Part shown: positions 16,501 through 42,000 of the stretch, one piece after another
Numbering within the stretch: the first letter of the stretch is position 1
Layout: every line of letters begins with the position of its first letter
Made by a program: the position numbers and the translations under genes
Assembly: GCF_037042905.1 (NCBI RefSeq)
Contig: NC_087250.1
Coordinates: 23,252,001-23,316,000, forward strand
Direction: 5' to 3'
Source: Lytechinus pictus
Taxonomy: Eukaryota
Length of the DNA: 64,000 nt
Notes under the pieces: model-generated
The model's database searches: none
What the model was told of the DNA's origin: nothing
What the model saw: only the letters and a program-made list of their open reading frames with translations

Positions 16501-17339
16501 GTTAGATTTCGCGCCTGCGTTGGGACGGCGTTGTTGTTGTTGTTGTCGGACGCCGGACGTACGTCGGGGGTTTAGTGGGGGAGTTTTGCCACTTTCATGA
16601 TATAATTATGAAGCGGCAGAGGAAGAGGGAGGAGGATGAGGAGAGGCAGCCAGAGAAGGAGAAGAAGAAGAAGAAGAAGAAGGAGAAGAAGAAAAAAAAA
16701 GGAGGAGGAGGAAATTGCACATATAGGCCCAGTCTGTAGCGACTTGACTATATCTGCATACCTAATCTATTTATTCTTTTCCTTATATACCTTTATACCA
16801 CATTTTTCATATTTTATATAGTTACCTATGATCTGCTTTGCAAACAGATTTTTTTCATTCTTACCATGGGCATGATGGGTTAGAACGTAGAGGCAATTGT
16901 CACGACTTACCCACCGCCCCGCCCCCCGGCCCCCCCCCCCTCCCCCCCCCCCCAAAAAAAAAATCTCCTTTCAACTGTTTTGCCTCCCAAATTTTGGGCG
17001 CGGTCTTGTACTTGTACTTATACTATATTTTTCTTCTGTTGCTATGCAATCATATTAAGACAAGACCACCCCAACAAAAAGTTGAATTGAATTAAAGAGA
17101 AAAATCCAGCAAGCATAACACTGAAAATTTCATCAAAATCGGATGTAAAATAAGAAAGTTATGACATTTCAAAGTTTTGATTAATTTCACAAAACAGTTA
17201 TATGCACATAATGGTCGGTATGCATATGAGGAGATTGATGACGTCATCCACTCACTATTTCTTTTGTATTTTGTTACATGTATATGAAATATTCTAATTT
17301 TCTCCCCATTGTCAAGTGAAAAATGATTAATCCTCAGTT

Positions 17340-18655
17340 GAAAGGAGATTTTTTATGGTGTAATACAAATAAAATGAACTTGAATGCCAGTAAATGTCAA
17401 GCGATGAGAGTGGACTTTGGGAAGAATCCACCCCCACCACTGATTGTTGAAATAGGCAACCAGACCCTGAACGAAGTAAATGTGATGAAAATACTTGGTA
17501 TCCTTATCCAATCAGACCTGAAATGGAATGACCACATTAGTTCAATGATAGCTAAGGCTAACAGGCGAATTTACATGTTGAGGCAGCTCAGACCTTTTAA
17601 ACTCCAACAGGGTGATCTACTGACCTTTTATACTGGTTACGTGAGGCCTTTGGTGGAGTATGCTGTGCCAGTTTGGCACCCAGGTCTGACTACTCAACAG
17701 CGAGCACAAATCGAAAGAACACAGAAACGATCTCTCCGAATTATTCTTGGCCCACTGTACATCACCTATGAGAATGCCCTACAAATCACAAACCTGAAAT
17801 CACTCGAATTAAGACGACGGGACTGTATCAAATTTGCCAAGTCCCTACAAAACTCACCCACCTTCAGATCCTGGTTGCCTAATCCTAAACTAAACACAAA
17901 ATCACGCCGAAGAATTGCTCCCTACGATCAGATTAAATGCAGAACACAAAGGTACAAACTTAGCTTATTGAATGAATCCTAGATAAAAAAAAGACAATCA
18001 GTTTGTTGTGATCTGTATTATGACCTCTTCCTAAATCCTTTTTTTTTTTCATATCTCCTCTCTCTCTCTCTCTCTCTCTTTCTTCTTTTTCTTTCTCACC
18101 CTCCATCTCCATCTCTTTCTCTTTCTCTCGCTCTCTTTCCCTTCCTCCATCATTCTCTCCAATTCTTTCTCTATCTCACCATGCAATGTGACTTTTTATT
18201 ATTATTATTGAATTAGAATAATCAGCGACTACCTGTAATGTTTCAGTAGAACGAAATAAGTATACAAAACTCTCTGTATATAAAACTTTATTCTAATTAT
18301 TTACCCATTGTTACCCACTTCCATTTCTCCTTATACTCTGAATACGTTACTAATTCGAAATATCGATATTCTCAAGTCAAATTTATCCAATCCAATTCAC
18401 TTACATCATAAATCCTTCCAATCCGCTTTCTCGTATACATGTACTATATCTTAAGCAAATTTTGAAACCTCTGCAATTACTTATATTCTGTTGATTCATA
18501 TTAACCTCCAAAGTACATTATTTCATGCTTTGCCTGTATTTTTATAATTCTATTTTGATACTGTTATGTTTTATGTTGTTTTTTAATGTAAAAGTTCTGT
18601 ACAATTCAGCTCTTGCTGCGAACAGTCTTTGAATAAAATACCATTATTATTATAT
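17340..18655 (+). mobile_element. 5'-truncated L2/CR1-group LINE (RT C-terminus plus 3' UTR) inserted into a Kolobok-like MITE (17056-18950)
   Basis: ORF 17323..17982: W...NKMNLN..KC..KILG.LI.SDLKW..H..KANRR..LRQL..Y..YVRP.VEYA.PVW..IER.QKR; ends aataaa..(tta)n; MITE halves on both sides. Confidence 0.9.
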
Positions 18656-21600
18656 TGTTTAATAGTGGTTCAGTCAACTTGGTCCTTATTGTCAAATCTG
18701 TAAAAAAAAATTAAATATTGTATAATTAAAACAATAAAAATGAAAGAAATAGTGAGTGATGGACATCATCGATTGGCTCATTTGTATTACATTGAATTGT
18801 GCATATCACTGTTTTGTGAAAAATAAGCGAAAATTTAGAATGCCATAACTTTCTTATTTTACATTAAATTTTGATGAAATTTCAGCGTTATGCTAGTTTA
18901 ATTTTTCTCTATTTATTCAAATAAAAATTGTTCTGGGGTGGAATTGACCTATATAGTTTCCAGCTAGCCCCCCCCCCCCCTTTCCCTACCAGTCGGCTTC
19001 CTTGGAGAGGGTAACAATAGGCCCACTCTCGTATCCGTGGGGGGCACAGTCGGCTCGTGCCCCCCCCCCCTTTGAGAGGCACAATTAACATTTGTAATGT
19101 AAAAATGCCGTTAAAACACAAGTGTGCCCCCCCCCCCCGCTTTGAAAGTGACTTTTTGTTCGCTTGTCATATTTTTCCTCTGAAAAAATATGCCCCCCCC
19201 CCTTGTAAAATCCTCCATCCGCCCCTGAATAGGCCTATATTATCGTCTATTTTTGCAATTTTTCACAACTAGACTTCTTGGTTTTGTTTTACATGAAGGG
19301 CATTTGACAATATATTTTCTATGTTCTTTGAAAGCGTTCTGCGTCGCAGTGCAAATCGCTGAATAGAACCGGCTCCATTCGATGTGAAGTATGATTGACA
19401 TGAACCATTCATTTTCATTGAAGGGGACAGCTTGAAAGTTACTGGGAAAACAAATTAATAAACTTTATGTTAAGAGATAACATGGAAATATTATATGTTA
19501 ATTGGTCCTCTTAGATATGTTTGACGTCATTTCGTCTTATGATTTTTAATATCTGATTATCTCTGTATATTTGGACCAAGTGCTTATACATGATGAATAG
19601 CACCCCTCTGTTGTAAGTCGTCCGGTCCTTATATACGTTAATTTAATCGTGGTATTGTTTCAAATAGTCCGACTCGCCTCTTTTTCTCGCAGCTGACATT
19701 TTTCGAAAATAAAGTTCGCAAATTATATGGTGATTATCTGTATTTATTCCCGGAATATGGGATATAATTAGAGAGAACACGACTGAATTCTAATTACAGA
19801 TCATTTAAGTTTCCGAATGATACAAGTGTTTTTTCCCTCTCGCGACAGTATGTAAGTATTAAGCAGATCATTTGATCATTATTATGCTTCATATACAATC
19901 TCCTTTTTAGTCACATCAAATAAGCAACTATAATATGGTAAATTCGTTGTTATACCTATATATACTTTTTGTATTTATGACATATTATCTTTATTTTAAC
20001 GATCAAAATGTAATTATTGTAATGATTTCTTTTATTTTGCGGGTAGACCCATCGATCCGTTCTGATAGACAATTAGGATATAATGTATAACATGAATGTA
20101 TATTTGGAGGGTGGGGGGGGGGGGTAGTACATTCACATTTTTCCTAAGAACCATGCAGGTGCTAGCCTAATTCGGGAAATATTCATAATGATATCTCCGT
20201 CACAGGGGGGCGGGGGCAAAAGCAAAAGTTGGCCATTATGGTATTTATCAATACAAAATACGTTTTCAGATAAAGTTAATACAAAATGGGTTACGAGCCC
20301 TTTTGACAACAGCTATTTTTATTTTAAGCTATTTATAACCCAACGAATGTCGCCCCCGAATTTTGTTGAAAAAATATAATAAAAAGAAAACTCAAACAAA
20401 AGAAATGCATAAGAAAATAAAGCAAAATAAAAACAATTGAATACATGAGAAATCAATTGTGGTACCGGATTTTTTTTTCAAAACATAAAACAAAGCTTTT
20501 GCGCCGCGGCGCAGAACGCTTTCAAGAACCTAGAAAATTTGTCGTCACTCATGCAGCTCCAAAACTGAAGGTTGCGGTTCACCATTTTCCGACAAAGTCC
20601 TCCCAGCTGTTCATTGTCATTTGAAGGACATTTTCGATGGATTTACTGTGTTCTTAAAGAAAATATTTAAATCTAAATAAATAGAGTAATATTTAGAGCA
20701 AAATACTGAAAAATTCATCGAAATCTGATAGCAAATATATAGCTAAGTTATTGAAATTTAAAGTTTAGCAAATATGATTGTGAAAACAGTTATACACACG
20801 TCGTCATAAATATTCATTAGATGGACTGATGATGTCACATTCCCACTTTCCTTTTCCCATATGTTATTAGATGAAATCATAATTGTTTCATTTTTTCATG
20901 CATGTGTGAATGATAAGCCTCCCTTAATTGTAATGAAATAAGTTGCAGCAATGAATGCACTTAATCAATCGTTATTCCAATTATAATATTTCGGGTTCTT
21001 GAAGGAAAAAAAATGATCATCAGTTTTCTCATTCACATGTCTAGATCTGTTTCACCGGAATAATACAAATCTTTAAAATGCCAGAACTTGATTCCTTGTC
21101 CGATTTTGATCAAATTGTCAGTGTTTTGTTTGTCTTATTTTTCTTAATCTGTTCAAATCATATTATTTTCAAATCAGAGGGCCCCTTTAAGTTCGTACTG
21201 CGTCGCTAGTGATCATGTACTAATAGTTGCCAACTCTACCGCTGTTGTTGGTATTCTCATGCTTTTGCACTTTTTGACAGCCTTCTGATCATTTCAATGG
21301 AAATACCATATTTTGATATTTTGTTAAGAGTCCCTCCAATATTGCCGACAATGGACGGTACGACGTTGCAAAACTATTTTATCATGCCTTTAACTGATCA
21401 TATGTAGTTTAAAACATGTGCATGCTTGACTAAATACAGAAAAATCTAACAAGCATATCATTAAAAATTTCATCAAAATCGGATGTAAAATAAGAGATTA
21501 TGGAACTTTGAAGTTTCGCTTATTTTTCCACGAAGAAGTTATTTGCACAACTCAGTGACATGCAAGTCAGAGAGTAGATGATGTCCCTGCTCACTCACTA

Positions 21601-24274
21601 TTTATTTTGTTTTATCATATTAATTATTTTTTTAAACAGATTTGACTATAAGGACCAACTTGACTGAACCATAAAACGCTTAAACAAAATTTAGGAGCGC
21701 CTTGAGCATGCACCTAGCAGTGGATACGTGCGCTACACAAATCCTATATTATTATTGATTATCAAAGCAATGGTAATACCAAAATGATGTTCAGGGATGA
21801 ATAAGACTTCGTTTCACATGACAATGAGGAGTAAATTAGAATATTTCATATTTCATATAATAATATACAAAAGAAATAGTGAGTGGGTGACGTCATCAGT
21901 CCCCTCATTTGCTTACTGACCAGGATGTGCATAATAACTGTTTTGTGAAATTAAGCGAAACTTTAAAATGTCATAAATTTCTTATTTTACATCTGATTTT
22001 GATGGAATTTTCAGGTTATACTTGTTTGGTGTTCTCATTGTATTTAAATCAATTATTTGTTGGGGTGGACTTGTCCTTTAACTTTTTATATTTTGAATAC
22101 TGATTTTTTTTTCTCTCTCTTCGTTACGCTTCCTCAAAAACATGGATGAATAATTATTTCATTCACGGAATCCTTCAGTTTTGTTTCAGTTTAATTTCTT
22201 TCTCATTTCCAACAGAACAGTATACAAAATCCATAAACATGCAATCATAACAACATTATCAATATATAATTAAGATACATGTAACACAATATATATATTC
22301 ATCTTAATTATAGCTTATACATTTGAAACTTGTATGGATCATAAAATATTTGTAGCTGAAAATGGAAAGGTCCATTGTGAAGGTTTCCTTGTAAATCGTG
22401 TACCCCTCAAATTAGATTACTAGTACTAGTATTCAATAATACTCAATCACATAATGAAAATAATGATTGCTATCATGGGCGGAAATCCCAGGGGGGCAGT
22501 GGGGACGCGTCCCCCTCACCTTTTAGAAAGGGGGACACAATATCCAATGCCCCCACACTATTTGTGGAAGGAGCGAAAAAAAAGGGGGGGAAAACGAAGA
22601 AACAGAAAGAGGAGGAGAAAAGGGAGAGGAGGAAGACGAGTAAATAAAATAAGGTGAGGGGGGTACATCTTTCATGTCACTTTTATTTTCTTATGCTTTT
22701 CTTTCGTTTGAGTTTCCTTTTTATTTATATTTTTCAGCAAAATTCGGGGGCGACATTAATTGGGTTATAAATAGCTTCAAATTATAATGGATGTTGTCAA
22801 TAAGTGTGTGTGTGTGTGTGTGTGTGTAGAAGAATGATGGAAAACTCGATTGTGTCACCCCCCCCCCCCTACACACACACACACCTTTTAAGAGAGATGT
22901 TCGCCCATGATTGTAATCAATTAGAAAATCTCCTTCTGACCTTGACATAATTTGTGGTGTGAATTATATTTTCCCATGACATATGTTTTGCTCAGAAGGA
23001 GGCAAGATGCAATGATGAAACTATCTGAAAATATGTGTAAAAAACAAATGGAGAGTTATCCACAAAATCAGCCATTTTGAATCACGTTTGCCAATTTGAG
23101 GATCCCCTTAGAAAGTACAAGAGTTTTAAAACTCCCATAACTTGCTTATTTCATTACCGATCTTGATGAAACCTCTTTTAAATTGTTCCTCTCATTTACT
23201 CTTTCTTGGGTGTTGGTTTCCTTTAAACAGGCCTAATATTATAATTCCCTCTCAGTGAACCACGCCCCCCCCCCCCCCCAGAAGGGCCCAGAATGCATTC
23301 TTCATGCTGAGTGTTGAATGGAGACAACACTACAATTTTCGGCAAACCCAGAGAAACAAACTTAATTCAATGTAATATTTTGTCACCTGACTTCACAATT
23401 AAATATCTAAAACATGGCAGAACATGAACATTTGAAATAAAGGGAAAGTTTGCGTTCATAATCATTGCCGTTTATATTTATTTCTTTTTATTAATATACA
23501 TATTTGAGATTTGTCTCACAGCGTGCGTGTTGTGTATTTCTGTTGTTTATTAATTTTTAGAAATCTGATGATAATGCAGTGTGCATAGATTCCTCTAAAC
23601 TTGAAACAGGCATATTCAAAATGTGTGATATTCTTTGTTAAACACTGCAGCTGTCACTACACTGTCGTTGAATTAATACGCCAAGCAGAAACAATAGCAA
23701 GGTGGTTATATTTGCTCTACGGCGCCTACGGCGGCCGTACGAAAACAGCCGTTTTATTATGATTTTTATTCAAACCACCTATATGTATAGCTGGTAAAAT
23801 GTTAAAATGGCTGTTTTCGACTTGCCGTGAGCAATTTTGACCGAGGTATAAAGCTCCACCCAAAAATCATTGATTACGAGGCAGGATGGCGATATAGATT
23901 ATACGGGGGGGGGGGGGGGGGGGGTAGTCTTCAGGCACAGACCCTGATTGGAACTTTGATCAACAAGTGTGCCTCCACGCAAAATTCAGACCCTTTACTC
24001 GAGTGAAGGGTTTGCCCAGCAGACGGGGGGGGGGGGTATGAATAGGCATATTGCAAAACATGCATCATGCTAAAATATTATTGAAGTATCGTTCATTCTC
24101 AAAACAAATCAGTCAAAAATGACTAGTTAATCGAGCCAGAGGGGTGCAACTGTTATTCTAGTCATATTTGACTATTTTCTAGATGTATTTTACTAGAAAA
24201 GAGTTATTTCTGACTAGAATATAAGTCAGAATGTGGGTAGACATATCAGTTGCACCCAGTTGACTACTGATCTT

Positions 24275-25200: not shown

Positions 25201-25453
25201 GTGCTAAGAAGTTCTGAAGTAGATAATTTGTATGTATGTCGCCAGTCCGCGATGAAGAAACTGAGGAACCTTTTTTCCCGGCGTCAAAATAGTCAAAGAC
25301 TACGCATCATGAATACGTCATTAATACGGATCGAAAAGCAACAAAATAATTGACAATGACCCGAGCAGCTGGTCAGCGTGTCTCAATAGGAGCATCCCTG
25401 CGGTTACCATGAGAGGATTGTGTGTTCGAGTCCCAAATTAGGCAAGAACTTAA

Positions 25454-26004
25454 AGGACAAGTCCACCCCAACAAAAAAATGATTTGAAGAAAAGGAGAAA
25501 AATCCAACAAGCATAACACTGAAAATTTCATCAAAATCGGATGTAAAAAAGGAAGTTATCGCATTTTTAACTTTCGCTTAATTTCACACAACAGTTATTA
25601 TGCACATCCTGGTCGGAATGCAAATGAGGGAACTGATGACATCACTCATTTCTTTTGTATTTTGTTACATGAAATATTCTAATTTTCTCCTCATTGTCCT
25701 ATGTAACAAATGTTATTCCTCCCTGACCATATGGTATTATCATTGTTATAACATTTTATGGTTCAGTTAAGTAATTGGTAAAAATTGTAATATTGTATGA
25801 TTCCAACAACAAAAAACAAAAGAAATAGTGAGTGATGAACATCATCGACTTTCTCATTTGCATGTCACTGAGTTGTCAATGGAACTATTTTTTTGAAAAA
25901 TAAGCGAAACTTCAAAATGTTATAACTTTCTTATTTTATATCCGATTACGATGAAATTTTAAGCATTATGCTTGTTTGATTTTTTTGTGGGGTAGACTTG
26001 ACCT
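25454..26004. mobile_element. Full copy of TTAA-flanked Kolobok-like MITE
   Basis: TTAA-aggacaagtccacccc...ggggtagacttgacct-TTAA. Confidence 0.8.
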
Positions 26005-26558
26005 TTAACTTTAAAATCTCTACCCATTTTTGATAAAAATTGAGGCGAGACTTTGAACAAAATATAAGCTACTTTGGTCATAATCACGAATCCCGATTGG
26101 CATGGAGGGAGAAATAGGAATATTTTAGATAAAATGTACCTATTCTACCTATAAGATAACTATTAGGATATGAATGTATTGAGTAACGATTTGTGTTATC
26201 GTTGAAGTGGGTCTCTATTACAAGACTACACGGCTCACACTGTTGCATTATGGGTAGGACCCTGTCCAGATGTGCATAGTTGAGGACTAGTGGTGCTACT
26301 ATGGCTGTTGGTTCGTCTGTCCTTTAATGTAGGCATGTATTGGAACATGGAGGTCCATTTCTTTACAATATTTAAATAAAAGAGCTGCCAAAAGCTGTTG
26401 TACATGACCTTCACACATACTTTCTCCAGTTGAGGCATGGCGGCTTGTCATTGTTCAAAACACACCTTCACCCGACAAAGGAAATTATCATTGGTATAAT
26501 GTCGAAAATCTGTCTATCTGACGGTCAGTCGGATCGGGGTCGTCCTAGCCACTAACCC

Positions 26559-26630
26559 GTCTCTGTGGTATAGTGGTTAAGGCACCGGCGTTCAAAGCTG
26601 GGGGCCCGGGTTCGATTCCCAGCAGAGACA
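26559..26630 (+). tRNA. tRNA-like gene or pseudogene with anticodon TCA (short variable loop, not canonical tRNA-Sec), probably repeat-borne
   Basis: Acceptor stem GTCTCTG/CAGAGAC 7/7; A-box TGGTATAGTGG; anticodon stem CCGGC/GCTGG with loop GT-TCA-AA; B-box GGTTCGATTCC; T6 immediately downstream. Confidence 0.6.
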
Positions 26631-26724
26631 TTTTTTCGGCATCACCAATTTTTCCAAATGGTAGAAAGCTCTGGGAACCTTGATTTAAGCTACGCCTACC
26701 ATTGTTCTCTTCATCCATTTCTTT

Positions 26725-26727
<3 letters not shown>

Positions 26728-26776
<49 letters not shown>

Positions 26777-26793
26777 CGGGTGAGTGTGTGTGT

Positions 26794-26827
<34 letters not shown>

Positions 26828-26832
26828 TATAA
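26728..26832. repeat. (TA)n/(TG)n microsatellite
   Basis: Directly visible. Confidence 0.95.
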
Positions 26833-27066: not shown

Positions 27067-30000
27067 GTAAAGGAAAAGAAAATATATATTTAATTGGAAA
27101 CGGGTATAAATTGCCAAATTCGTCCACTCACTACATGGTCTACCTTCATTTAGTCTAATGCCATTCCGTCCGTCAACATTTCGTCTGACAACTATTTGGT
27201 CCAATAACCATTTGGTCCAATCATCACTTCGTCTAATCACAAGTTCGTCTATGACCATTTCGTCTAATAACAAGTTGGTCTAATACCCATTTCATTTTCA
27301 TTCCTTTTGCAAAAAACATGCACTTTAGTCCAATTAATAAGCCAGTTCGTAGTTCCACTCTGCGCATGATCAGAAGATTGTGCGCGCTAAATTGTGCTTC
27401 CACCACTCATACCGAACTTGAAAATCCTCAATGAACCAAGACGTATGTAATATTCTGAGAAAGATTGAGTAAAATAATTTTCTTACACAACAAATTTTCA
27501 CAGCTATAAGCGGGTAACTCCTTTTCCCCCTAGAAGGCTTTGAAAACCTTACAGAAAATACTCACACAAAACAGGGTAAAACTATCAAGTCCGCTCAATT
27601 TTGACAAGAACTTTATTGATACCTAGATCATCCTGTAGTAGTCAAATTTGAAGATTCTTTTTTATACAGATATTTCATGTCGATATTTCAAAGAATCTAT
27701 CATGTATAATCACACCAATTAACGAAGCCGAATCCAAATGGCATTGGACACGTCTAGATTGATTTAATCGGTCTGGAGACGGCTTATCCGGATGTGTCAA
27801 TATAGCCATTCTCATTTAAAATACCGTGATTATTTGAGCTTATCGCGATCTTTCCTCATCTTGATTCACACTGGAGCAAGCATCGCGATCTTTCTGGACC
27901 CGCAAAAACATAATCCTTGGACATGAGTGCGCTAGCTTGCGCAATGGATTAATTTACCCCATGCACCACCAGGGGCCCGTTTCATAAACATGATAAAGAG
28001 TTACAACCAGGCGCGGATCCATGGGGGGGGGCCGAGGGGGCCTTGGCCCCCCCCCCCCTTCGGCTAAAAAAAGAAGAGGGGGAAAGAAAGAGAAAAAAGA
28101 GGGGAAGAGGGGAAAGAAAGGAAGAAAAAGAAGAAAGGAATAGGGGGAAGAAGGGAAGAAAAAAGAGAGAAGAAAAGGGGGTAAAGAAAAGAGGAAAGGA
28201 GAGAGGGAGAGGGGGAAAGGAAAAGGAGAAAAAAAAGAGAGAGGAAGAAGGAGGAAAGAAGAGAAGAGAGAGAAAGGGGAAAAGAAGAGGGGAAAAGAGA
28301 GAGGAAGAGGGGGAAGGAAGAAGAGGGGGAAAAAGAGAGAGGAAAGGGGGAAAGAAAAGAAGAAAAAGGGAAGAGGGGGAAGGAAGGGAAGGAAAAGGGA
28401 GAGGAAAAGGGGAAAAGAGAAGGAAAAAGAGAGGGAAAGGAAAAGGAGAAAAAAGGAGAGAGAGGGGAAGAGGGGAAAGGAAGAGAAGAAAAAGAGAGGG
28501 AGGAAAAAGAGGAGAGAAAAGGAGAAAAAGAGGAAGAGAAGAAAAGGGAGGGGGAAGGAGAGGGGGAAGAAAAAAGAGGAAGAGGGGAAAAGAATAGGAG
28601 AAAAGGGAGAGAGAGGAAGAGGGAGGAAAGAAGAGAAGAAAAAAGAGAGGGGAAAGAAAAGAAGAAAAAAGAAGAGGGGAAAGAAAAGAAGAAAAAAAAG
28701 GAGAAGAAGAGGGGAAAGAAAGAGAAAAAAGAGGAAGAGGGGGAAGGAAGAGAAGAAAAAGCGAGGGGGGGAAGAGAGAGGAAGAGGGGAAAAGAAAAGG
28801 AGAAAAAGGAGAGAGAGGAAGAGGGAAGAAAGAAGAGAAAAAAGAGAGAGAAGGGGGAAGAAAAGGGGAAGGAAGAGAAGAAAAGGGAGGGGGAGAGGGG
28901 GAAGAAAAAAGAGGAAGAGGGGAATGAAAAGGAGAAAAAGGAGAAAGGAAGAGGGAGGAAAGAAGAGGGAAAAAAAGAGAGAGAAAGGGGGGGAAGAAAA
29001 GAAGAAAAGGGGAGAGGAAGAGGGAAAGGACGAGAGGAAAAAAAGAGGAAGAGGAGGAAAGAAAATGATGTTCGAACCAAAAGGGCGCCGAAATGATGTT
29101 CGAATGAATGTCAAAATGATGTTCGAACTGGGGGCGCCAGATTGATACTCGAACTAGGGGGGAGGGGCCGAATCGATGTTCGAACTAGGGGGACGCCAAA
29201 TTGATACTCGAACTAGGGGGGCTCAGAATTGATGTTGGAACTAGGGGGCGCCAAATTGATACTCGAGCTAGGGGGGCCGAAATGATATTCGAACTAGGGG
29301 CGCCAAATTGATGTTGGACCTACATGTAGGGGCGCCGAATTGATATTCGAACTAGGAGGGCGCCGAAATGATGTTCGAAGGGATGTTAAAATGATGTTCG
29401 AACTGGGGGCGCCAAATTGATACTCGAACTAGGGGGGGGGGGGGGGCCGAATCGATATTCGAACTAGGGGGACGCCAAATTGATACTCGAACTAGGGGGG
29501 CTCAGAATTGATGTTGGAACTAGGGGGCGCCAAATTGATACTCGAACTATGGGGCGCCAAATTGATGTTGGACCTACATGTAGGGGCGCCGAATTGATAT
29601 TCGATCTAGGAGGGCGCCAAAATAATGTTCGAAGGGATGTTAAAATGATGTTCGAACTGGGGGCGCCAAATTGATACTCGAACTAGGGGGGGGGAGGGGG
29701 CGAATCGATGTTCGAGCTAGGGGGCGCCAAACTGATACTCAAACTAGGGGGGCGCCGAATTGATGTTCCAACTAGGGGGGCGCCAAATTGATACTTGAGC
29801 TAGGGGGCGAAATGATTTTCGAACTAGGGAAGCCAAATTCAGTTCGAAGGGATGCCAAAATGATGTTCGAACTGGGGGTCGAATTGATGTTCGAACGGGG
29901 GGGGGGGGGCGAATTGATGATCGACCTACATGTAGGGGCGCCGAATTGATACTCGAACTAGGGGGGGGGGCGCCGAATCGATGTTCGAACTAGGGGCACC

Positions 30001-33000
30001 ACATTGATGTTTGAACTAGGGGGCGCCGAATTGATATTCGAACTAGGGGCGCCAATTTGATGTTCCAACTGGGGGCGCCAAATTGATGTTAGAACTAGGC
30101 GGCGCCAAAATGACGTTCGAACTATGGAGCGCCGAATTGATGTTTGAACAAGGGGGAGGGGGCGAATTAATTTTCGAACTAGATGGGGGCGCCAAATTGA
30201 TGTTTGAACTGGGCGGGGCGCCAAATTGATGTTCGAACTAGGGGAGCGCCAAATTGATGTTCGAACTAGGGGGCGCCGAATTGCTATTCGAACTTGGGGC
30301 GCCAAATTGATGTTAGAACTAGGCGGCGCCAAAATGACGTTCGAACTATGGAGCGCCGAATTGATGTTTGAACAAGGGGGAGGGGGCGAATTAATTTTCG
30401 AACTAGATGGGGGCGCCAAATTGATGTTTGAACTGGGCGGGGCGCCAAATTGATGTTCGAACTAGGGGAGCGCCAAATTGATGTTCGAACTAGGGGGCGC
30501 CGAATTGCTATTCGAACTTGGGGCGCCGAATTGATATTCGAACTAGGGGCGCCAATTTGATGTTCCAACTGGGGGCGCCAAATTGATGTTAGAACTAGGC
30601 GGCGCCAAAATGACGTTCGAACTATGGAGCGCCGAATTGATGTTTGAACAAGGGGGAGGGGGCGAATTAATTTTCGAACTAGATGGGGGCGCCAAATTGA
30701 TGTTTGAACTGGGCGGGGCGCCAAATTGATGTTCGAACTAGGGGAGCGCCAAATTGATGTTCGAACTAGGGGGCGCCGAATTGCTATTCGAACTTGGGGC
30801 GCCAAATTGATGTTAGAACTAGGCGGCGCCAAAATGACGTTCGAACTATGGGGCGCCGAATTGATATTTGAACAAGGGGGAGAATTAATTTTCGAACTAC
30901 ATGGGGGCGCCAAATTGATGTTTGAACTGGGCGGGGCGCCAAATTGATGTTCGAACTAGGGGAGCGCCGAATTGATGTTCAAACTAGCGGGGCGCCAAAT
31001 TGATGTTCGAACTAGGGGAGCGCTAAGTTGATGTTTGACCATAAGGCGACAAATACATGTTTCAGAAGGGGGAGGGCAAAGTGATATTTCACATGGCGCC
31101 AAATTCATGTTCAACCGAGGGCGCCAAATTGACCTTGAACTTAGGGGGCTCCATGCAAATTCATGTTTGACCAGGGGCGCAACATTGCTCGTATTGCCTG
31201 TTTATAGTGAAATTTATTTCCTGCCCAAAAAGGTTAAATTAATGCGGCTGATTTAAAATATCCCGTTTTTACGATAATAGACAAAAATCAATGTGCTCGA
31301 GTTTGAAGTTTGTTTGGCAAGATAGGTATCCTGTTCAGGGTCAGAAAAGGGGTAAATATCAAATTCAGCTGGCGCTACGCGCTCGCAATATTTGATTAGT
31401 GAGGTGTGTATCCTCTCCATCGATCACACGTACATAAGTCCTTAAAATGTTAGTGTTTTTCAAGTCAATATACATAGGCCGATCCAGGGGGCAAAGTTTT
31501 TGCCCCCCCCCCCCCCCCCCCATGGTGGCGCAAAAAAAAAAGGAAAGAAAAAGAAAAAAAAGACGAAGAGAAAGAGGAAAAACTTTTAGAATAGGAATTA
31601 TACCTTAAAAGAGTCCTTCTTAAGTCAGTATATGAAAAAATTTAGCTCGCGCTACGCGCTCGCATCATTGCTTAGTTATATACGCATCCCGACCTCACAG
31701 TTTTTTTTTATGCGAACGAGAAGCACAAGCTGAAAATATTTTATATTCTAATCTAACAACTGAAAATGTCCTTTTCATTTCATCATTAAAAAAGTTTTCA
31801 GCTAGCGCTTCGCGCTCGCATTCATTTCTTAAAGGACAAGTCCACCCCCCAAAAAAATGTTGATTTGAATAAATAGAGAAAAATCAAACAAGCATTATGC
31901 TGAAAATTTCATCAAAATCGGATGTAAAATAAGAAAATCATGACATTTTTAAATTTTGCTTATTTTTCACAAAACAGTGATATGCGCAACTCAGTGACAT
32001 GCAAATGAGACAGTCGATAATGTCCCTCACTCACTAATTCCTTTGTTTTTTATTGTTAGAATTATACAATATTTCATTTTTTACAGATTTTACAATATGA
32101 ACCAGCTTGATTGAACCATTTAGTATTAAACAATGCTAATTGCTCATGTTCAGGGAGGAATTAATCGTTGTTTCACACGACAACGGAGAAAAATTGAATA
32201 TTTCATATTTCATATACTAAAATACAAAAAGAAGTAGTGAGTGAGTGATGTCATCAGTCTCCTCATTTGCATACCGACAAGGATGTGAATATAACTGGTT
32301 TGTGAAATTAAGCGAAACTTTAAAATGTTGTTGGCCTACCTATTATCTTTGTGTATTTCCTATAAGATTCTCAACATATTCCTTTTCAGGTGTTTCGATT
32401 GTCAAAAATGAAGGCCTATGAGCTAGCGCTGTGCGCTCGCATTTTTATTGGTGATTTCTGTATACCTATTCAGTGGCGTAACTACCAGGGGGCATGGGGG
32501 GCACGTCCCCCCCCCCCAAAAAAAAAAGAAATTATTGTTTATTATAATGTTATATTATATCATAATTATTTTACATAAGAAGCATTTTTTCATGACTTTA
32601 TGAAACAGTTTGCTCAGGGCCTATGTCTTCATTGTTCCTGGTGCTCGCATAGACTGTTTAACGAGATGTATAATCCTGTTGTACTAAAACCTCCCGTTTT
32701 CAAATCAATATACACCAAATATATTTCCTCGCATTTCGAGTTATTATTGTTTTATGTAGTGACATTTGCTTCTTTTTCATGACTACTTAAAGTGATAGCC
32801 CAATTTTAGGGTCTTAATATAAAACATTTCCTGTCCGTGCTAACGTTCGCATTAGTTGATTGGTGAGATGTCTGCTCTTCATGAATTCCTAAAATCAGTT
32901 CTTAAAATGTCAATTTTTCTTATCTGAATATCAAATTTTTTTAGCTCGCGCTTCGCGCTCGCATCATTTGGTTAGTGAAATACGTAAGGACTTAGTGAAT

Positions 33001-36000: not shown

Positions 36001-39000
36001 AAAAAGTGGTCTTTAATTGCCTTTTTTTTAATGTGATTATGTAATAAGATAATTCAAAATACATTCAAGGCATTTAAGTTACATTTAAGTTAGCCTGGCC
36101 GGGAGGGAGGGGGCGCCATTTTTCGAAAAGTGCACATGGGCGCCAAAAATCACGTCAAATTTGGGCCCCCCTCCCCACGAAATCTTGGATCCGCGCCTGG
36201 TTACAACTGTTGTAACTTTGCCATTATGGCAACTACCATGGCAAACTTGATTCTGATTGGCTGATGAGCCCTGTTACCATGGTAGTTGCCATAATGGCAA
36301 AGTTCCAACAGTTGCAAGTCCTTTATGAAACGGACCCCAGCTTTTCTTTGTCTATCGTCAACGCGCGAAATTTAAACAAAACCTCGCGGAGTCTCGGATC
36401 ATATGATTCACATGAGAAAACTTGCGAGTACTAGTAGTTTACTCGCAATGATAGAATGATAGCAAGATGGCTCCCGATTGCCTTCATCGACATTCCTCCG
36501 TCTAAAGGGCATTCCTTGTCGCAGAAGATACCTCATTGAAGAAAATATCCTGACAAGAGAGTGGCGAGCAGTATCTTGCTGTTCTTTGATCTGCTTGTTG
36601 AGTTGACTGTCAATTGATGAGCCACCGAAAACCTGTGGGTTTCTGACATCTGGTTCCCATCGAACCGTTCAGTAGCCTTTTTCCACTTGTTGAATCCATC
36701 AAAAATGAAGGCTGGATCTCGTTTCTTTGATAATGTCAAGATTCCCATAGCTTCAGCCCGCTTGCACTAGAAACAAGTAGTCCGGGTTATAATTGAGCAA
36801 GGTGCCACAAGAAAAAGGAGAAATTTTCATATAGTGCTTCTAGACCAGTTTTTTACGCTGAATATGAATATATGAGGTAACCAGGCTGTATCCTGAAAAT
36901 TAACCCGTGAGGGCGCTTTTTTCAAAATGGCCGCCAAATTTTCAGAACATTTGAATTTTCGTACATAGATTTTGACATAAATATTCCATTGCCACAAAAT
37001 TAGTGTCATATGAAAGACAAATAAATTTTCTACAATTTGGTACTATTTATAGGGGATAAGTAGGTCATTTGGCTGAGATTTTAAGTAGAAAACTGCATTT
37101 TTTGCCATTTTTTCCCAAAAATTGAAAATTTAGCAAATACATGATTTTACATAATTCTGAAAAAATGAATGAATTACCTTGAAATGTTCCAGAAAACTTT
37201 ATTGACATACTATTATCATGTGGATGAAATTCCAACTCTGTATCATTCTTCTTAGCAAATTTATAAGGTATCAAACTTGAATACTTCAATTTCAGAAATG
37301 TCGCTTTTTGTATGCATTTCCATAGACTAATACGTATAACATGTACTGTACATGTATAATATGTATAATGTATAGTTTAATAAAATTTAAATGCAATTAT
37401 CTCCGCTTTTTAACCACTTGGAGAGTTAAGAGTAGGCTTTTCTCTATCAGCTACATAAAACAAAATGTTGGCACATCGAGGCCTAACACTCTCATGGGGT
37501 GGGGGTGTCGAAGCCCCCCACCCCCTTTGGCTATATCATGTTGTTGTATATTGCCTATTGGAAAATCACTATTTTTTGAAGCACCCATTGAGGCAAAAGG
37601 CATTTCTGCTATACAGTACAGCCACTTTAATTACTTTGAAACCGCTTGGAGAGGAAAAGAGTAAGCTTTGTCATTTTTGTTCTACCAGCTATATCAAAAG
37701 AAGTGGCACGTACATCGAAGCCAACCCCTCTCGGGGGGGAGGGCGCTGGGGAAGTCACCCCTCCCCCTTTTGCTTATTGCCAATGTATTTGGAAATTCAC
37801 CATTTTGGACCCAACATTGAGGCAAAAAAGCGTTTGTGCTTTATAGTATTTTATCAATTTGAGAGAGTAGAGTTTGTTCTACCAGCTACATAAATAAGCG
37901 CTAGCACATCGAACCCTAGCCCTCTCAGGGGCTGTCTAAGTCACCCCCTCCTCTATATCATGTATGTTGCCTATTTATTGGAAATTTCACCATTTTGGAT
38001 CACCCATTGAGGCATAAGGGCGTTTCTATATCATACAGCCAATTTTATTTTCTTGCAATTACTTGGAGAGGCAAGAGTAGGTTTTGCTCTATCAGCTGCA
38101 TATGAACAAGTGCTGGCAAATAAAATCCTACCCCTTCCGGGATGCTGTTGAAATCACCCCATCCCTTTTGCATTATAGCATATTTATTGAACAATTCACC
38201 ATTTTGGAGCCCCCATTTAGGCAAAAAGGCGTTTCTGATATAGTTCTGCCACTTTTACTGCCTTGAAACCACTTAGGGAGGAAAGAATAGGATTTGCTTT
38301 ATCAGCCACATATAAAGAAGTGCTGGCAAATAAAAGCCTACCCCCTCCGGGAGGCTGTTGAAATCACCCCACCCCTTTTGCATTATTGCTTATTTATTGG
38401 GAAATTCACCATTTTGGAGCCCCCATTTAGGCAAAAAGGCATTTCTGATATAGTTCTTCCACTATTACTGCCTTGAAACCACTTAGGGAGTAAAGAATAG
38501 GTTTTGCTTTATCAGCTACATAAAAAGATGTGCTGGCAAATAAAAGCCTACTCCCTTTAAGGGACTGTCGAAATTACCCCCCCCCCTTGAAATTCACAAT
38601 TTTGGAGCCTCCATTGAGGAAAAAAGGCGTTTATGATATATAGTTCTGCCACTTTTAAATCCTTGAAACCACTTAGGGAGGAAAGAATAGGTTTTGCTTT
38701 ATCAGCCACATATAAAAAAGTGCAGGCAAACAGCAGGAGGCTGTCGAAATCACCCATCCCTTTTGCATTATTGCCTATTTATTGAAAAAATCACCACTTT
38801 GGAGCCCCCATTGGGGCAGAAAGTCATTTCTGATTATGTTTCTGCCTTTTTTCACCCTTGAAAACTCTTGGAGAGAAAAAATAGGCTTTGCTTTAACAGC
38901 TACATATAAAGACATGCTCGCAAATAAAAGCCTATCCCCATCAGAGGGCTGTTGAAATCACCCCACCCCTTTTTCATTATTGCTTATTTATTGGAAAATT

Positions 39001-42000
39001 CACCATTTTGGAGCCCCCATTGAGGCAAAAAGGCGGTTCTGATATATAGTTCTACCACTATTACCGCCTTGAAACTACTTGGAGAGGAAAGAGTAGGCTT
39101 TCCTCTAACAGCTACATATAAAGAAGTGGCTCTACTATATACCAGAAACACTTTTTTGCCTCAATGGGGCTCCAAAATGGCGAGTTTTCCAATGAATTTG
39201 AAAAAATCGTAAAAAAGGTGGGGTAACATCTATATAGTCCCCTGAAGTGGGTCAGGCTTCGATATGGCAGCAATTCGTTATATATAGCTGAAAGATGGGA
39301 ACCTACTCTTTCCTCTCCAAGTGGTTTCAAGAAAATGAAATTGGGTGTTTTATACAGCAGAAGTGCATATCGCCTCAATGGGGGCTCAAAAATTGTGAAT
39401 TTTCAAATAATTAGGCAATAATACAAGAGGGGTGGGGTGATTTGACAGCCGCCAAGATAGGTAAGCTTCAATGTGCCAGCACTTCTTTGTAGAGCAAAGC
39501 ATATTCTTTCCTCCTTAATTGGTTTCAAGGCAATAAAAGTGGCAGAACTTTATATCAGAGATGTCTTTTTACCTGAATGGGGGCTCAAAATAGGTGAATT
39601 TCCAATAAATAGGTAATAACGCAAAGGGGTGAGGGGGTGATTTCGACAGCCCCCAGAAGGGGGTAGGCTTTTATTTGCCAGCACAAAATTATGTAGCTGA
39701 TAGAGCAAAGCCTATTCTTTCCTCTCTAAGTGGTTTCAAGGCAATAAAAGTGGCAGAACTATATATCAGAGAAGCCTTTTTGCTTCAATGGGGGCTCCAA
39801 AATGGTGACTTTTCAACAAATAGCCCAAAACCGAAAATTAGTGGGGTAACTTCTACAGCCGCTTGAAGGAGATAGGCTTTGATTTGCCAACACTTCTTTA
39901 TATGTAGCTGATAGAGCAAAGCCTACTCTTTCCTCTCCAAGTCATTGCTAGAAAAGAAATTTGCTGTACTATATAGTAGAAACGCCCTTTGCCTCAATGG
40001 GTGATGCAAATTGTGACTGTCCAATAGATAGTCAATTACCGAAAATTGGTGGGGTAAATTCTACAGCCCCCTGAACATTCTGAAGGGGATAGGCTTTGAT
40101 TTGCCAACACTTCTTGATATGTAGCTGATAGAGCAAAGCCTAATCTTTCCTCTCCAAGTCATTGCAAGAAAATAAAATTGGCTGTACTATATAGTAGGAA
40201 CGCGCTTTTGCCTGAATGGGTGATCCAAAATGGTGAAATATCCAATAAATCAGCAATATACATGATATAGAGGGGGGTGACTTAGATAGCCCATGAGAGG
40301 GCTAGGGTTCAATGTGTCAGTGCTTATTTATATGTAGCTGGTAGAACAAACTCTACTCTTTCCTCTCTAAGTGGTTTCAAATCAATAAAATGGGGTGTAC
40401 AACAAAGCACAAACGATTTTTGGCCTCAATGTTGGGTCCAAAATTGTGAATTTTCAAATAAATTGGCAATATTAAGCAAACCCCCCCCCCCCCCGAGAGG
40501 GGTAGGCTTCGATGTGCCACTTTGTATGTAGCTGGTAGAACAAAGCCTATATACTCTTTCCTCTCCAAGTGGTTTCAAAGCAATCAAAGTGACTGTTCTG
40601 TATAGCAGAAATGCCTGTTTTTGCTTCAATGGGTGCTCCAAAAAACAGAGATTTTTCCAACAAATAGGCAATATACAACAACATGATATAGCCAAGGGCA
40701 AGGGGGGTGACTTCGACACCCCCACCCCATGAGAGGGTCAGGCCTTGATGTGCCAACATTTTGTTTTATGTAGCTGATAGAGAAAAGCCTACTCTTAACT
40801 CTCCAAGTGGTTAAAAAGCGGAGATAATTGCATTTAAATTTTATTAAACTATACATTATACATATTATACATGTACAGTACATGTTATACGTATTAGTCT
40901 ATGGAAATGCATACAAAAAGCGACATTTCTGAAATTGAAGTATTCAAGTTTGATACCTTATAAATTTGCTAAGAAGAATGATACAGAGTTGGAATTTCAT
41001 CCACACGATAATAGTATATCAATAAAGTTTTCTGGAACATTTCAAGGTAATTCATTCATTTTTCTTAGAATTATGTAAAATCATGTATTTGCTCAATTTT
41101 CAATTTTTGGGAAAAAATGACAAAAAATGTAGTTTTCTACTTAAAATCTCAGCCAAATGACCTACTTATCCCCTATAAATAGTACCAAATTGTAGAAAAT
41201 TTATTTGTCTTTCATATGACACTAATTTTGTGGCAATGGAATATTTATGTCAAAATCTATGTACGAAAATTCAAATGTTCTGAAAATTTGGCGGCCATTT
41301 TGAAAAAAGCGCCCTCACGGGTTAATTTTCAGGATACAGCCTGGTTACCTCATATATTCATATTCAGCGTAAAAAACTGGTCTAGAAGCACTATATGAAA
41401 ATTTCTCCTTTTTCTTGTGGCACCTTGCTCAATTATAACCCGGACTAAAGTCACTCCTTGGATCTCCGGTTGGTAATGGAGCCATGGATATCTGGTAAAC
41501 CACTTCTTCTGAAAGTATTTTTTTTGTGATTTTGTCTCTTTTGGGGGAATGATCGAACAATCTTGAGGGTGATTTGGTTCATCATCATGGAAGATTTCTT
41601 CACCTCCTCTTTCCACTGTTGTGCTAGTTGATGCCGATTCTAATTCACTTATACTAGCTGTTTCTTTTTCTTGCAGCGGACTTTCAGATTCCTTTCTCAT
41701 TTCTTTTTCTGCTTTCTTGCTTGGGGTTGCTTGAAACAAGGAGAAGCTCCTTGCTTGAAAGAAGTTTGTTAGTTTGGAATACTTTTTGCGCTTTGCATCA
41801 ATTTTTAGCCTCAGATATGTCCGCGATATAATCAGGATAGTTTGCTCAAGAGCTTTTACATGTTTTATGACCAGCGCGTTTTGTTAGATATGCGCAAAGA
41901 GAAATTCTTGGTAGCTTGTTAATTTCGCGCATTGGAATTTGGTTACAATAACTTTTTATGACAGCGATGCCTGGCGATTTACTTATTTTACATAACAAAA

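What the first reader, a model, noticed from the sequence alone, without database searches (positions are those of the whole stretch)
26354..26832. tRNA-like gene with a UGA-reading (UCA) anticodon in a small cassette with a hammerhead-like motif and a (TA)n flank
Seen: 26559-26630 folds as a 72-nt cloverleaf with a perfect 7-bp acceptor stem, A and B boxes, anticodon TCA at 26592-26594, a 4-nt variable loop and a T6 run that could terminate Pol III. It therefore looks like a discrete tRNA gene rather than a SINE head, and it lacks the long variable arm of tRNA-Sec. About 55-90 nt upstream lies CCGACAAAG-[gaaattat/ataatgtc stem]-GAAA (26472-26507), a degenerate hammerhead-core layout. An 18-bp direct repeat tccatttctttacaatat (26354 and 26714) brackets the cassette, which runs into (TA)n. 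Established: Penelope-like retroelements carry hammerhead motifs in their terminal repeats, some associate with microsatellites, and some Naiad-group elements encode in-frame UGA selenocysteine. Inference: this may be the terminal repeat of a retroelement carrying its own Pol III tRNA-like module, possibly an opal-suppressor-like RNA. G32 and two stem mismatches argue against a functional tRNA in this copy.
Basis: partly seen in the sequence, partly recalled or inferred. Interest (0 to 1): 0.72.

Follow-up and report, generated by a model that had tools for sequence, protein, structure and literature searches.

The report
Tandem repeat masking its own tRNA
The stop-codon-reading "tRNA gene" is real in shape but is one module of a very abundant 360-base head-to-tail repeat; the supposed hammerhead ribozyme beside it is instead part of an antisense arm predicted to fold back over the tRNA, and the whole unit is likely a parasite copied by Penelope-like jumping genes rather than a working suppressor tRNA.

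Summary
The cloverleaf (26559-26630, anticodon TCA, T6 tail) and the 18-bp direct repeat are real. The hammerhead is not: no core word, no Rfam hit, and a second species changes its GAAA. Reads show that 26354-26713 is one 360-bp unit of a very high-copy head-to-tail repeat found under two species labels. The direct repeat is the start of the next unit (1.05 units), not a target-site duplication. The two stem mismatches are decay: about 99% of DNA depth pairs both stems. TCA and the abnormal G32 appear to be the family majority. It is not tRNA-Sec; the nearest references are tRNA-Gly(TCC) and tRNA-Glu. The new point is that 26440-26557, including the 'hammerhead', is an antisense copy of the tRNA and its trailer that lacks only the anticodon arm. 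The unit-length RNA is predicted to form a rod that hides the cloverleaf, and family-majority letters deepen that rod by 13 kcal/mol. Selection on the rod is not shown. Best reading (0.55): a ribozyme-free, non-autonomous passenger of Penelope-like elements that inserts at (TA)n, with the tRNA serving as an RNA polymerase III promoter. A working opal suppressor is unlikely (0.05). Earlier scan notes describe what is probably this family.

The parts
26354..26713 (+). One 360-bp unit of a very high-copy head-to-tail repeat
   Evidence: summed DNA depth 6e4-1.2e6 against 46-129 in the unique flanks; the joint 26713->26354 in 144 of 2179 RNA reads laid (77 starts); end-to-start joints in DNA contigs of runs X1 and X7
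26714..26731 (+). First 18 bp of the next unit (terminal redundancy), ending in AATAT at the microsatellite
   Evidence: exact copy of 26354-26371; loose ends behind 26724-26731 continue into unit sequence
26369..26381 (+). AT-rich stretch with AATAAA (26375); unpaired in the circular fold of the window copy; role unknown
26440..26557 (+).
   Evidence: local score 46, reached by 4 of 2000 dinucleotide shuffles; reached by 1 of 124 real tRNA loci; majority letters deepen the fold
26559..26630 (+). tRNA-like gene: canonical 7/5 cloverleaf, A and B boxes, anticodon TCA (26592-26594), G32, A73
26585..26601 (+). Anticodon stem-loop: the only tRNA arm predicted to survive in the rod (pair probability about 1.0)
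26631..26636 (+). T6 run, a Pol III terminator-like signal; predicted to pair with GAAAA at 26504-26508 in the rod
26637..26713 (+). 3' trailer, the right arm of the rod to about 26695, with a T5 run at 26649
26728..26831 (.). (TA)n/(TG)n microsatellite abutting the 3' end; inferred insertion target

Best explanation
This is a 1.05-unit copy of a very abundant 360-bp head-to-tail repeat that carries a tRNA-like gene and an antisense arm predicted to fold over it, and it is likely a non-coding passenger that Penelope-like retroelements reverse-transcribe into (TA)n tracts, with the tRNA likely serving as an internal promoter rather than as a decoder of UGA. SHOWN: the repeat nature, tandem junctions in DNA and RNA, presence under two species labels, an intact cloverleaf with A and B boxes in the family majority, the antisense arm, and the absence of a hammerhead. 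PREDICTED: RNA with 14 or more nt of leader folds as a rod in which only the anticodon hairpin survives; a monomer read from tRNA +1 to one unit later folds as a full rod with its two ends side by side; a transcript with 9 nt or less of leader folds as a cloverleaf. INFERRED: (1) Pol III starts at the tRNA in an array and sometimes reads through T6 and T5, or a longer transcript crosses the array. (2) The antisense arm keeps that RNA from being cut as a pre-tRNA by RNase P and RNase Z. (3) A Penelope-type (probably Naiad-like) endonuclease nicks (TA)n, the target primes on the AAUAU of the RNA, and reverse transcription of a multimeric or circular template ran 378 nt, leaving the 18-bp overlap. 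(4) TCA is a drifted anticodon of a tRNA-Gly(TCC) or tRNA-Glu ancestor, multiplied with the unit.
For:: unit boundaries; tRNA bins about 9,900 times the flank median (the tool warns this is no copy number); head-to-tail joints; C at 26570 in 675,293 of 678,285 (X1) and 166,283 of 166,360 (X7), G at 26621 in 750,629 of 757,545 and 239,345 of 239,450, each restoring a stem pair; plus strand z -3.81 (0 of 100 shuffles) and circular z -4.17 (0 of 60), against minus strand -1.12 and -1.21; rod -77.8 against enforced cloverleaf -48.3 kcal/mol; nine majority letters deepen the fold by 13.1 kcal/mol (0 of 300 random same-type sets), seven of them outside the tRNA (-10.9); the permuted monomer's outermost pair is 26567:26557. 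(PMC8557442, passages): Naiads prefer (TA)n, insert as partial tandems and lack canonical hammerheads, and non-autonomous Chlamys form head-to-tail insertions. (Li 2026 preprint, parts 1-2 of 5): tandem retrozyme units, also found as dispersed monomers, are proposed to be non-autonomous Penelope-like derivatives; tRNAs sharing its D and T arms are Glu (119 of 146), Gly-TCC (25 of 146) and Lys (2 of 146).
Against: No autonomous partner, shared 3' end or empty allele was seen: no genome is held and no RT or GIY-YIG hit came from 44 of 85 nearby frames. (TA)n lies on one side only, and no target-site duplication is visible. T6 directly after the tRNA should end most Pol III transcripts (general knowledge). 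Selection on the RNA rod is not shown: G.U bias is 7:2 (p 0.09) in this copy and 6:4 (p 0.38) with majority letters; the minus strand also folds when only the arm is shuffled (z -3.1 and -6.0); no compensatory pair was found; 3 of 8 letters common in RNA reads break a rod pair, and variant sets are no gentler than random (31 of 300 and 67 of 300). The arm could be the relic of an inverted duplication. RNA reads are few (169 per million), fall equally in both directions, and show no start or end pile-up.
Confidence: 0.55

Rival explanations
1. A tRNA-derived satellite amplified at the DNA level (unequal exchange, rolling circles). This locus is a stray monomer reinserted from extrachromosomal circular DNA, and the antisense arm is a fossil inverted duplication with no RNA role.
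For: Head-to-tail joints in DNA of two species labels and very high depth; 1.05 units also fits a DNA circle; no G.U bias or compensation; low RNA level; tandem repeats derived from SINEs are known (PMC10702118, abstract).
Against: The 3' end falls on AATAT at a (TA)n edge on the same strand as the tRNA and the better fold. A whole cloverleaf with A box, B box and terminator is kept in both species. The arm lacks just the anticodon hairpin.
Confidence: 0.25
2. A Pol III-driven non-autonomous element of another class: a solo or tandem LTR of a Helenus-type TRIM, or a SINE that formed arrays.
For: Helenus LTRs hold an internal tRNA-like sequence and can form tandem arrays (PMC10886601, part 1 of 6 and passages). 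A and B boxes are intact.
Against: This copy has no TG...CA ends and no purine run of 10 or more. The tRNA lies mid-unit and is followed at once by T6, unlike a SINE head. The cloverleaf is fully paired in the majority, unlike most Helenus.
Confidence: 0.1
3. The family makes a mature, charged UCA tRNA that reads UGA (an opal suppressor), used by the host or by an element.
For: All four stems pair in the family majority; no variant is listed in 26585-26601, and no run shows A36->C at 5% or more; a short-leader transcript folds as a cloverleaf.
Against: G32 occurs in 0 of 148 reference tRNA matches. Thousands of active suppressor genes would be expected to disturb termination (inference). Uniformity is explained by amplification of the whole unit. 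No UGA-containing partner frame lies nearby. General tRNA finders often call false tRNA-Sec in animal genomes (PMC5330540, passages).
Confidence: 0.05
4. One reading: the terminal repeat of an autonomous Penelope-like element with a degenerate hammerhead, linked to in-frame UGA.
For: (TA)n flank and terminal redundancy.
Against: No hammerhead. In run X7 the GAAA reads GAGA in 9,752 of 9,850, and 109 of 425 RNA reads lack 6 nt of the proposed stem II. The 3' loose ends shown run into the next unit, not into an ORF. Naiads lack hammerheads and use SECIS.
Confidence: 0.05

Closest known systems
Animal non-LTR retrozymes (Cervera & de la Pena 2020, PMC7229834, passages; Li, Clavereau & Pollet 2026, 10.64898/2026.07.22.740005, parts 1-2 of 5)
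   Same: Non-coding tandem unit within 150-450 bp and about 45% GC; monomers and multimers; highly self-paired predicted RNA; proposed dependence on Penelope-like elements.
   Different: No type I hammerhead. It carries a whole tRNA-like gene with Pol III signals and an antisense arm. A circular RNA is not shown.
Naiad/Chlamys Penelope-like elements and non-autonomous Chlamys such as MRC1 (Craig et al. 2021, PMC8557442, passages)
   Same: (TA)n target, partial-tandem structure, no canonical hammerhead.
   Different: No ORF, and no shared 3' end with an autonomous family shown. A tRNA module was not mentioned in the passages read. Naiad UGA recoding uses SECIS.
Helenus / Cassandra (TRIMp3; Kojima 2024, PMC10886601, part 1 of 6 and passages)
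   Same: A small-RNA gene inside the repeat as a likely Pol III promoter; tandem arrays.
   Different: No LTR ends or polypurine tract seen; (TA)n junction; fully paired cloverleaf.
tRNA-derived SINEs and SINE-derived satellites (Vassetzky et al. 2023, PMC10702118, abstract)
   Same: tRNA-derived tandem repeat with dispersed copies.
   Different: The tRNA is complete, mid-unit and followed by T6; no SINE body or LINE tail was seen.
Eukaryotic tRNA-Sec (Santesmasses et al. 2017, PMC5330540, passages)
   Same: UCA anticodon.
   Different: 72 nt against 90-101; 7/5 fold against 9/4; no long variable arm; A73 against G73.

Membership tests
tRNA-Sec | UCA anticodon | tested here: met
tRNA-Sec | 90-101 nt, 9/4 fold, long variable arm, G73 | tested here: not met
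   72 nt, 7/5 fold, 4-nt loop, A73; criteria. RF00005 outscored its clan members
Functional cytosolic tRNA | Paired stems, A and B boxes, T-run terminator | tested here: met
   Met for family-majority letters; this copy has two mismatches
Functional cytosolic tRNA | Pyrimidine at position 32 | tested here: not met
   G32 here; C or U in 148 of 148 reference matches
Functional cytosolic tRNA | Processed, CCA-added, charged | not testable with these tools
   Only standard RNA-seq was laid
Hammerhead ribozyme / non-LTR retrozyme | Type I hammerhead in the unit | tested here: not met
   GAAA altered in run X7
Hammerhead ribozyme / non-LTR retrozyme | Tandem non-coding unit of 150-450 bp | tested here: met
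   360-bp head-to-tail joint
Hammerhead ribozyme / non-LTR retrozyme | Highly self-paired circular RNA | tested here: inconclusive
   Rod predicted; junction reads cannot tell circles from arrays because the joint is also in DNA
Non-autonomous Penelope-like element (Naiad type) | Partial tandem ending at (TA)n | tested here: met
   One copy only: 1.05 units ending at (TA)n
Non-autonomous Penelope-like element (Naiad type) | Shared 3' end or pseudo-LTR with an autonomous RT plus GIY-YIG family | not testable with these tools
   No genome held; none among 44 of 85 nearby frames
Non-autonomous Penelope-like element (Naiad type) | Variable 5' truncation and inverted 5' copies across loci | not testable with these tools
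   No other full copy could be fetched; opposite-strand joints in single contigs were not followed up
Helenus-type TRIM | Two LTRs, PBS, PPT, 4-5 bp target-site duplication | tested here: not met
   this copy only: no TG...CA ends, no purine run of 10 or more; a PBS was not searched for
tRNA-derived SINE | tRNA head at the 5' end, then body and tail, flanked by a target-site duplication | tested here: not met
   205 bp of family sequence precede the tRNA, T6 follows it, and the direct repeat is unit sequence

The most novel reading that the evidence does not exclude
A ribozyme-free counterpart of retrozymes. An intact tRNA gene supplies the Pol III promoter and perhaps the RNase P cut that makes unit-length monomers. 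A built-in antisense arm, kept by selection, switches the long RNA into a viroid-like rod with its ends juxtaposed for circularisation and only the UCA anticodon hairpin exposed, and Penelope-like enzymes copy it into (TA)n tracts.
Probability: 0.15. Interest if true: 0.8.

Novelty: new variant of a known kind. Interest (0 to 1): 0.45.

Why it matters
If true, it widens the set of non-coding passengers of Penelope-like elements from hammerhead-bearing retrozymes to a tRNA-bearing kind, and offers a testable RNA switch: a short transcript folds as a tRNA, a long one as a rod that hides it. Practically, it means that UCA 'suppressor' or 'SeC' tRNA calls made by tRNA finders in this genome can be copies of this repeat. 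It does not show a new way of reading UGA.

Tried and rejected
Own genome: not held. Family copies: none in metagenome or viral contigs by the anticodon-arm pattern; the D-arm plus T-arm pattern gave 0 viral loci and 133 metagenome loci from a scan stopped at 16 of 64 parts, all ordinary tRNAs with no match to the unit's flanks beyond one 20-nt chance hit; no second copy in the window; no look-alike by sequence in the scan index. Run search: no RNA holder on record was listed; 4 of 24 runs were laid. Hammerhead, HDV-like, twister and other Rfam ribozymes: no hit. The 18-bp repeat as a target-site duplication: rejected. The stem mismatches as family traits: rejected, although the single X12 contig shares the window's A at 26621, a CpG site. 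A frame-shifted tRNA-Glu origin of TCA: scores below the in-register alignments (12 against 16) but is not excluded. G.U bias and variant tolerance as proof of selection on the rod: not significant. Penelope-like ORF nearby: none in 44 of 85 frames of 75 aa or more read through TGA; the 41 left out were low-complexity, the shortest, or overlapped the unit. Literature searches for a published description listed none by title or abstract start; (position 32) was seen as a listing only. Repbase and Dfam could not be searched, and supplements of the cited papers were not opened, so a consensus may already be deposited there.

Full report
CONTEXT. The window is repeat-rich, AT-rich eukaryotic DNA. 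It holds two galactose-3-O-sulfotransferase frames and one short frame with a weak ALKBH8_N hit (3 of 32 long frames scanned). No whole genome is held. Earlier scan notes call the organism a sea urchin; I did not test that.

OBSERVATION. ARAGORN finds one tRNA in the window, 26559-26630, anticodon TCA, and Rfam scores it 46.7 bits as RF00005. The 18-bp direct repeat and the (TA)n tract are there. It is not tRNA-Sec, which is 90-101 nt with a 9/4 fold and G73 (PMC5330540, passages).

THE HAMMERHEAD FAILS. There is no exact CUGANGA (motif recalled) on either strand of the unit read as a circle; 3 sites lie at one mismatch, and none completes a type I layout. Rfam shows no ribozyme at E up to 10 on 26340-26726. 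In run X7 the GAAA reads GAGA in 9,752 of 9,850, and 109 of 425 RNA reads lack 6 nt of the supposed stem II.

IT IS A UNIT OF A HIGH-COPY TANDEM REPEAT. I laid 4 of 24 listed runs on 25990-26733 at 80% likeness. In DNA run X1 the summed depth is 46-129 in the unique flanks and 6e4-1.2e6 from the bin holding 26354 onward. The tRNA bins are about 9,900 times the flank median. The tool warns that this is no copy number, so I say only 'thousands'. A second species label (X7, X12) holds most of the unit. 144 of 2,179 RNA reads laid join 26713 to 26354, and DNA contigs of X1 and X7 join 26719-26724 to 26365-26369. So the unit is 360 bp, head to tail, and this locus has 378 bp: one unit plus 18 bp of the next, ending on AATAT at the microsatellite. 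A joint from 26392 to about 26425 with unknown letters between, plus loose ends there, shows variants that differ in this segment. That would fit the 404-409-bp units of earlier notes, but I saw no sequence of those, so the identity is likely, not shown.

THE tRNA IN THE FAMILY. C at 26570 (99.6% of X1 depth, about 100% of X7, 447 of 495 RNA reads) and G at 26621 (99.1%, about 100%, 668 of 682) restore both stems. The single X12 contig keeps the window's A at 26621, a CpG site. No row is shown for 26585-26601. 76 rows are hidden, but rows down to about 35-40% share were kept, so TCA and G32 are inferred to be the majority. All A>C places counted per run (3, 2, 1, 2) are among the shown rows, so a TCC anticodon is under 5% in all four runs. 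For ancestry I fetched tRNAs sharing the D and T arms: of 146 complete matches, 119 are Glu, 25 Gly(TCC) and 2 Lys. Gly(TCC) is closest without gaps (20-23 differences against 23-33), and the nearest Gly loop differs only at positions 32 and 36. With gaps the best Glu(TTC) scores 85.5 and the best Gly(TCC) 84, with medians 72.5 and 80.5; the one Trp(CCA) scores 41. Gly(TCC) is mildly favoured. The panel is not the host's own and was selected by the pattern. Position 32 is C or U in 148 of 148 reference matches.

THE ANTISENSE ARM. The plus strand of the unit folds far better than shuffles (z -3.81, 0 of 100; circular z -4.17, 0 of 60); the minus strand does not (-1.12, 17 of 100; -1.21, 7 of 60). 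The cause is that 26440-26557 aligns to the reverse complement of 26567-26695. The score is 46, reached by 4 of 2,000 shuffles, against 22 in direct orientation; 1 of 124 real tRNA loci reaches it. The arm complements the D loop and T loop, so it is not an echo of the tRNA's own stems. Its one long gap matches 26586-26602, the anticodon arm. In 26470-26670 the rod is -77.8 kcal/mol against -48.3 with the cloverleaf enforced; acceptor and T-stem probabilities are 0 and the anticodon hairpin's is about 1.0. Nine majority letters deepen the fold by 13.1 kcal/mol (0 of 300 random same-type sets), so the rod belongs to the family, not to this copy. With 9 nt or less of leader the cloverleaf forms; with 14 or more the acceptor stem is lost. 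A monomer read from tRNA +1 for 360 nt folds as one rod with its ends side by side (outermost pair 26567:26557). None of the earlier summaries I was shown mentions this arm.

RESULTS AGAINST AN RNA ROLE FOR THE ROD. G.U pairs are not significantly biased to the plus strand (7:2, p 0.09; 6:4 with majority letters, p 0.38), and the minus strand also beats arm-shuffled controls (z -3.1 and -6.0). The three X7 letters (31 of 300) and the eight letters common in RNA reads (67 of 300; 3 of 8 break a pair) are no gentler on the fold than random changes, and no compensatory pair was found. The arm may be a relic of an inverted duplication. RNA reads are 169 per million, equal in both mate directions, with no start or end pile-up; such a library cannot show a mature tRNA.

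MECHANISM. Shown: a tandem, non-coding, tRNA-bearing, hammerhead-free unit with an antisense arm, ending at (TA)n with a short overlap. From the literature: Naiads prefer (TA)n, insert as partial tandems, lack canonical hammerheads and recode UGA through SECIS, and non-autonomous Chlamys form head-to-tail insertions (PMC8557442, passages). Animal retrozymes are 150-450-bp tandem units with self-paired circular RNAs, proposed to be non-autonomous Penelope-like derivatives (PMC7229834, passages; Li 2026 preprint, parts 1-2 of 5). Inferred: the A and B boxes drive Pol III; read-through or a longer transcript gives multimeric or circular RNA; the arm shields it from tRNA processing; and a Penelope-type enzyme primes at (TA)n on the AAUAU and copied 378 nt. 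No partner was found: 44 of 85 frames in 19-37 kb, read through TGA, have no RT or GIY-YIG hit.

KNOWN OR NEW. It works most like a retrozyme but fails membership for want of a hammerhead. It resembles Helenus in holding a tRNA inside the repeat, but this copy lacks LTR ends and a polypurine tract (PMC10886601, part 1 of 6 and passages). Seven searches listed no description of such a family by title or abstract start; Repbase, Dfam and paper supplements were not seen. Within this scan at least ten earlier notes describe what is probably the same family. They are unchecked leads; they agreed with my reading and supplied the wider (TA)n pattern, which I could test at one locus only. They disagree on ancestry (Glu in e1-7880797, Gly in e1-9857750), as my own panel does.

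VERDICT. A real feature and a new variant of a known kind. The suppressor-tRNA and hammerhead readings are not supported. The antisense arm is the part worth following. Interest 0.45.

Noticed in passing
window 26165-26289: A separate short repeat just left of the insertion (X1 depth up to 8,640; also in RNA reads), unrelated to the 360-bp unit.
   Followed up: no
window 26392-26425: Reads and contigs of the family carry other letters here (joint with unknown letters between, loose ends at 26406 and 26425), so length variants of the unit exist.
   Followed up: partly
window 26436-26690: Several single contigs join opposite strands within the unit (e.g. 26500/26690, 26534/26571), which may be head-to-head truncated copies.
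   Followed up: no
window 46761-47720 and 62336-63298: Two galactose-3-O-sulfotransferase frames (PF06990), about 82% identical in DNA: a local gene duplication.
   Followed up: partly
window 17320-17982: A 220-aa frame with a weak ALKBH8_N hit; by recall it looks like the C-terminal end of a LINE reverse transcriptase.
   Followed up: partly
window 37405-40812: Two arrays of 210-217-bp tandem units facing each other as a long inverted repeat, about 70% identical.
   Followed up: no
window 28073-31038: A 1-kb GA-rich tract followed directly by a 2-kb minisatellite of 27-28-bp units.
   Followed up: no
window 25444-25988: A dispersed repeat of 300-500 bp with relatives at about 1-360, 3035-3171, 17059-17335, 18654-18958, 21411-22087, 31825-32328 and 57900-58078.
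   Followed up: no
L124: A metagenome locus with a cluster of diverged tRNA-Glu-like copies, one of which reads as Lys(TTT).
   Followed up: no
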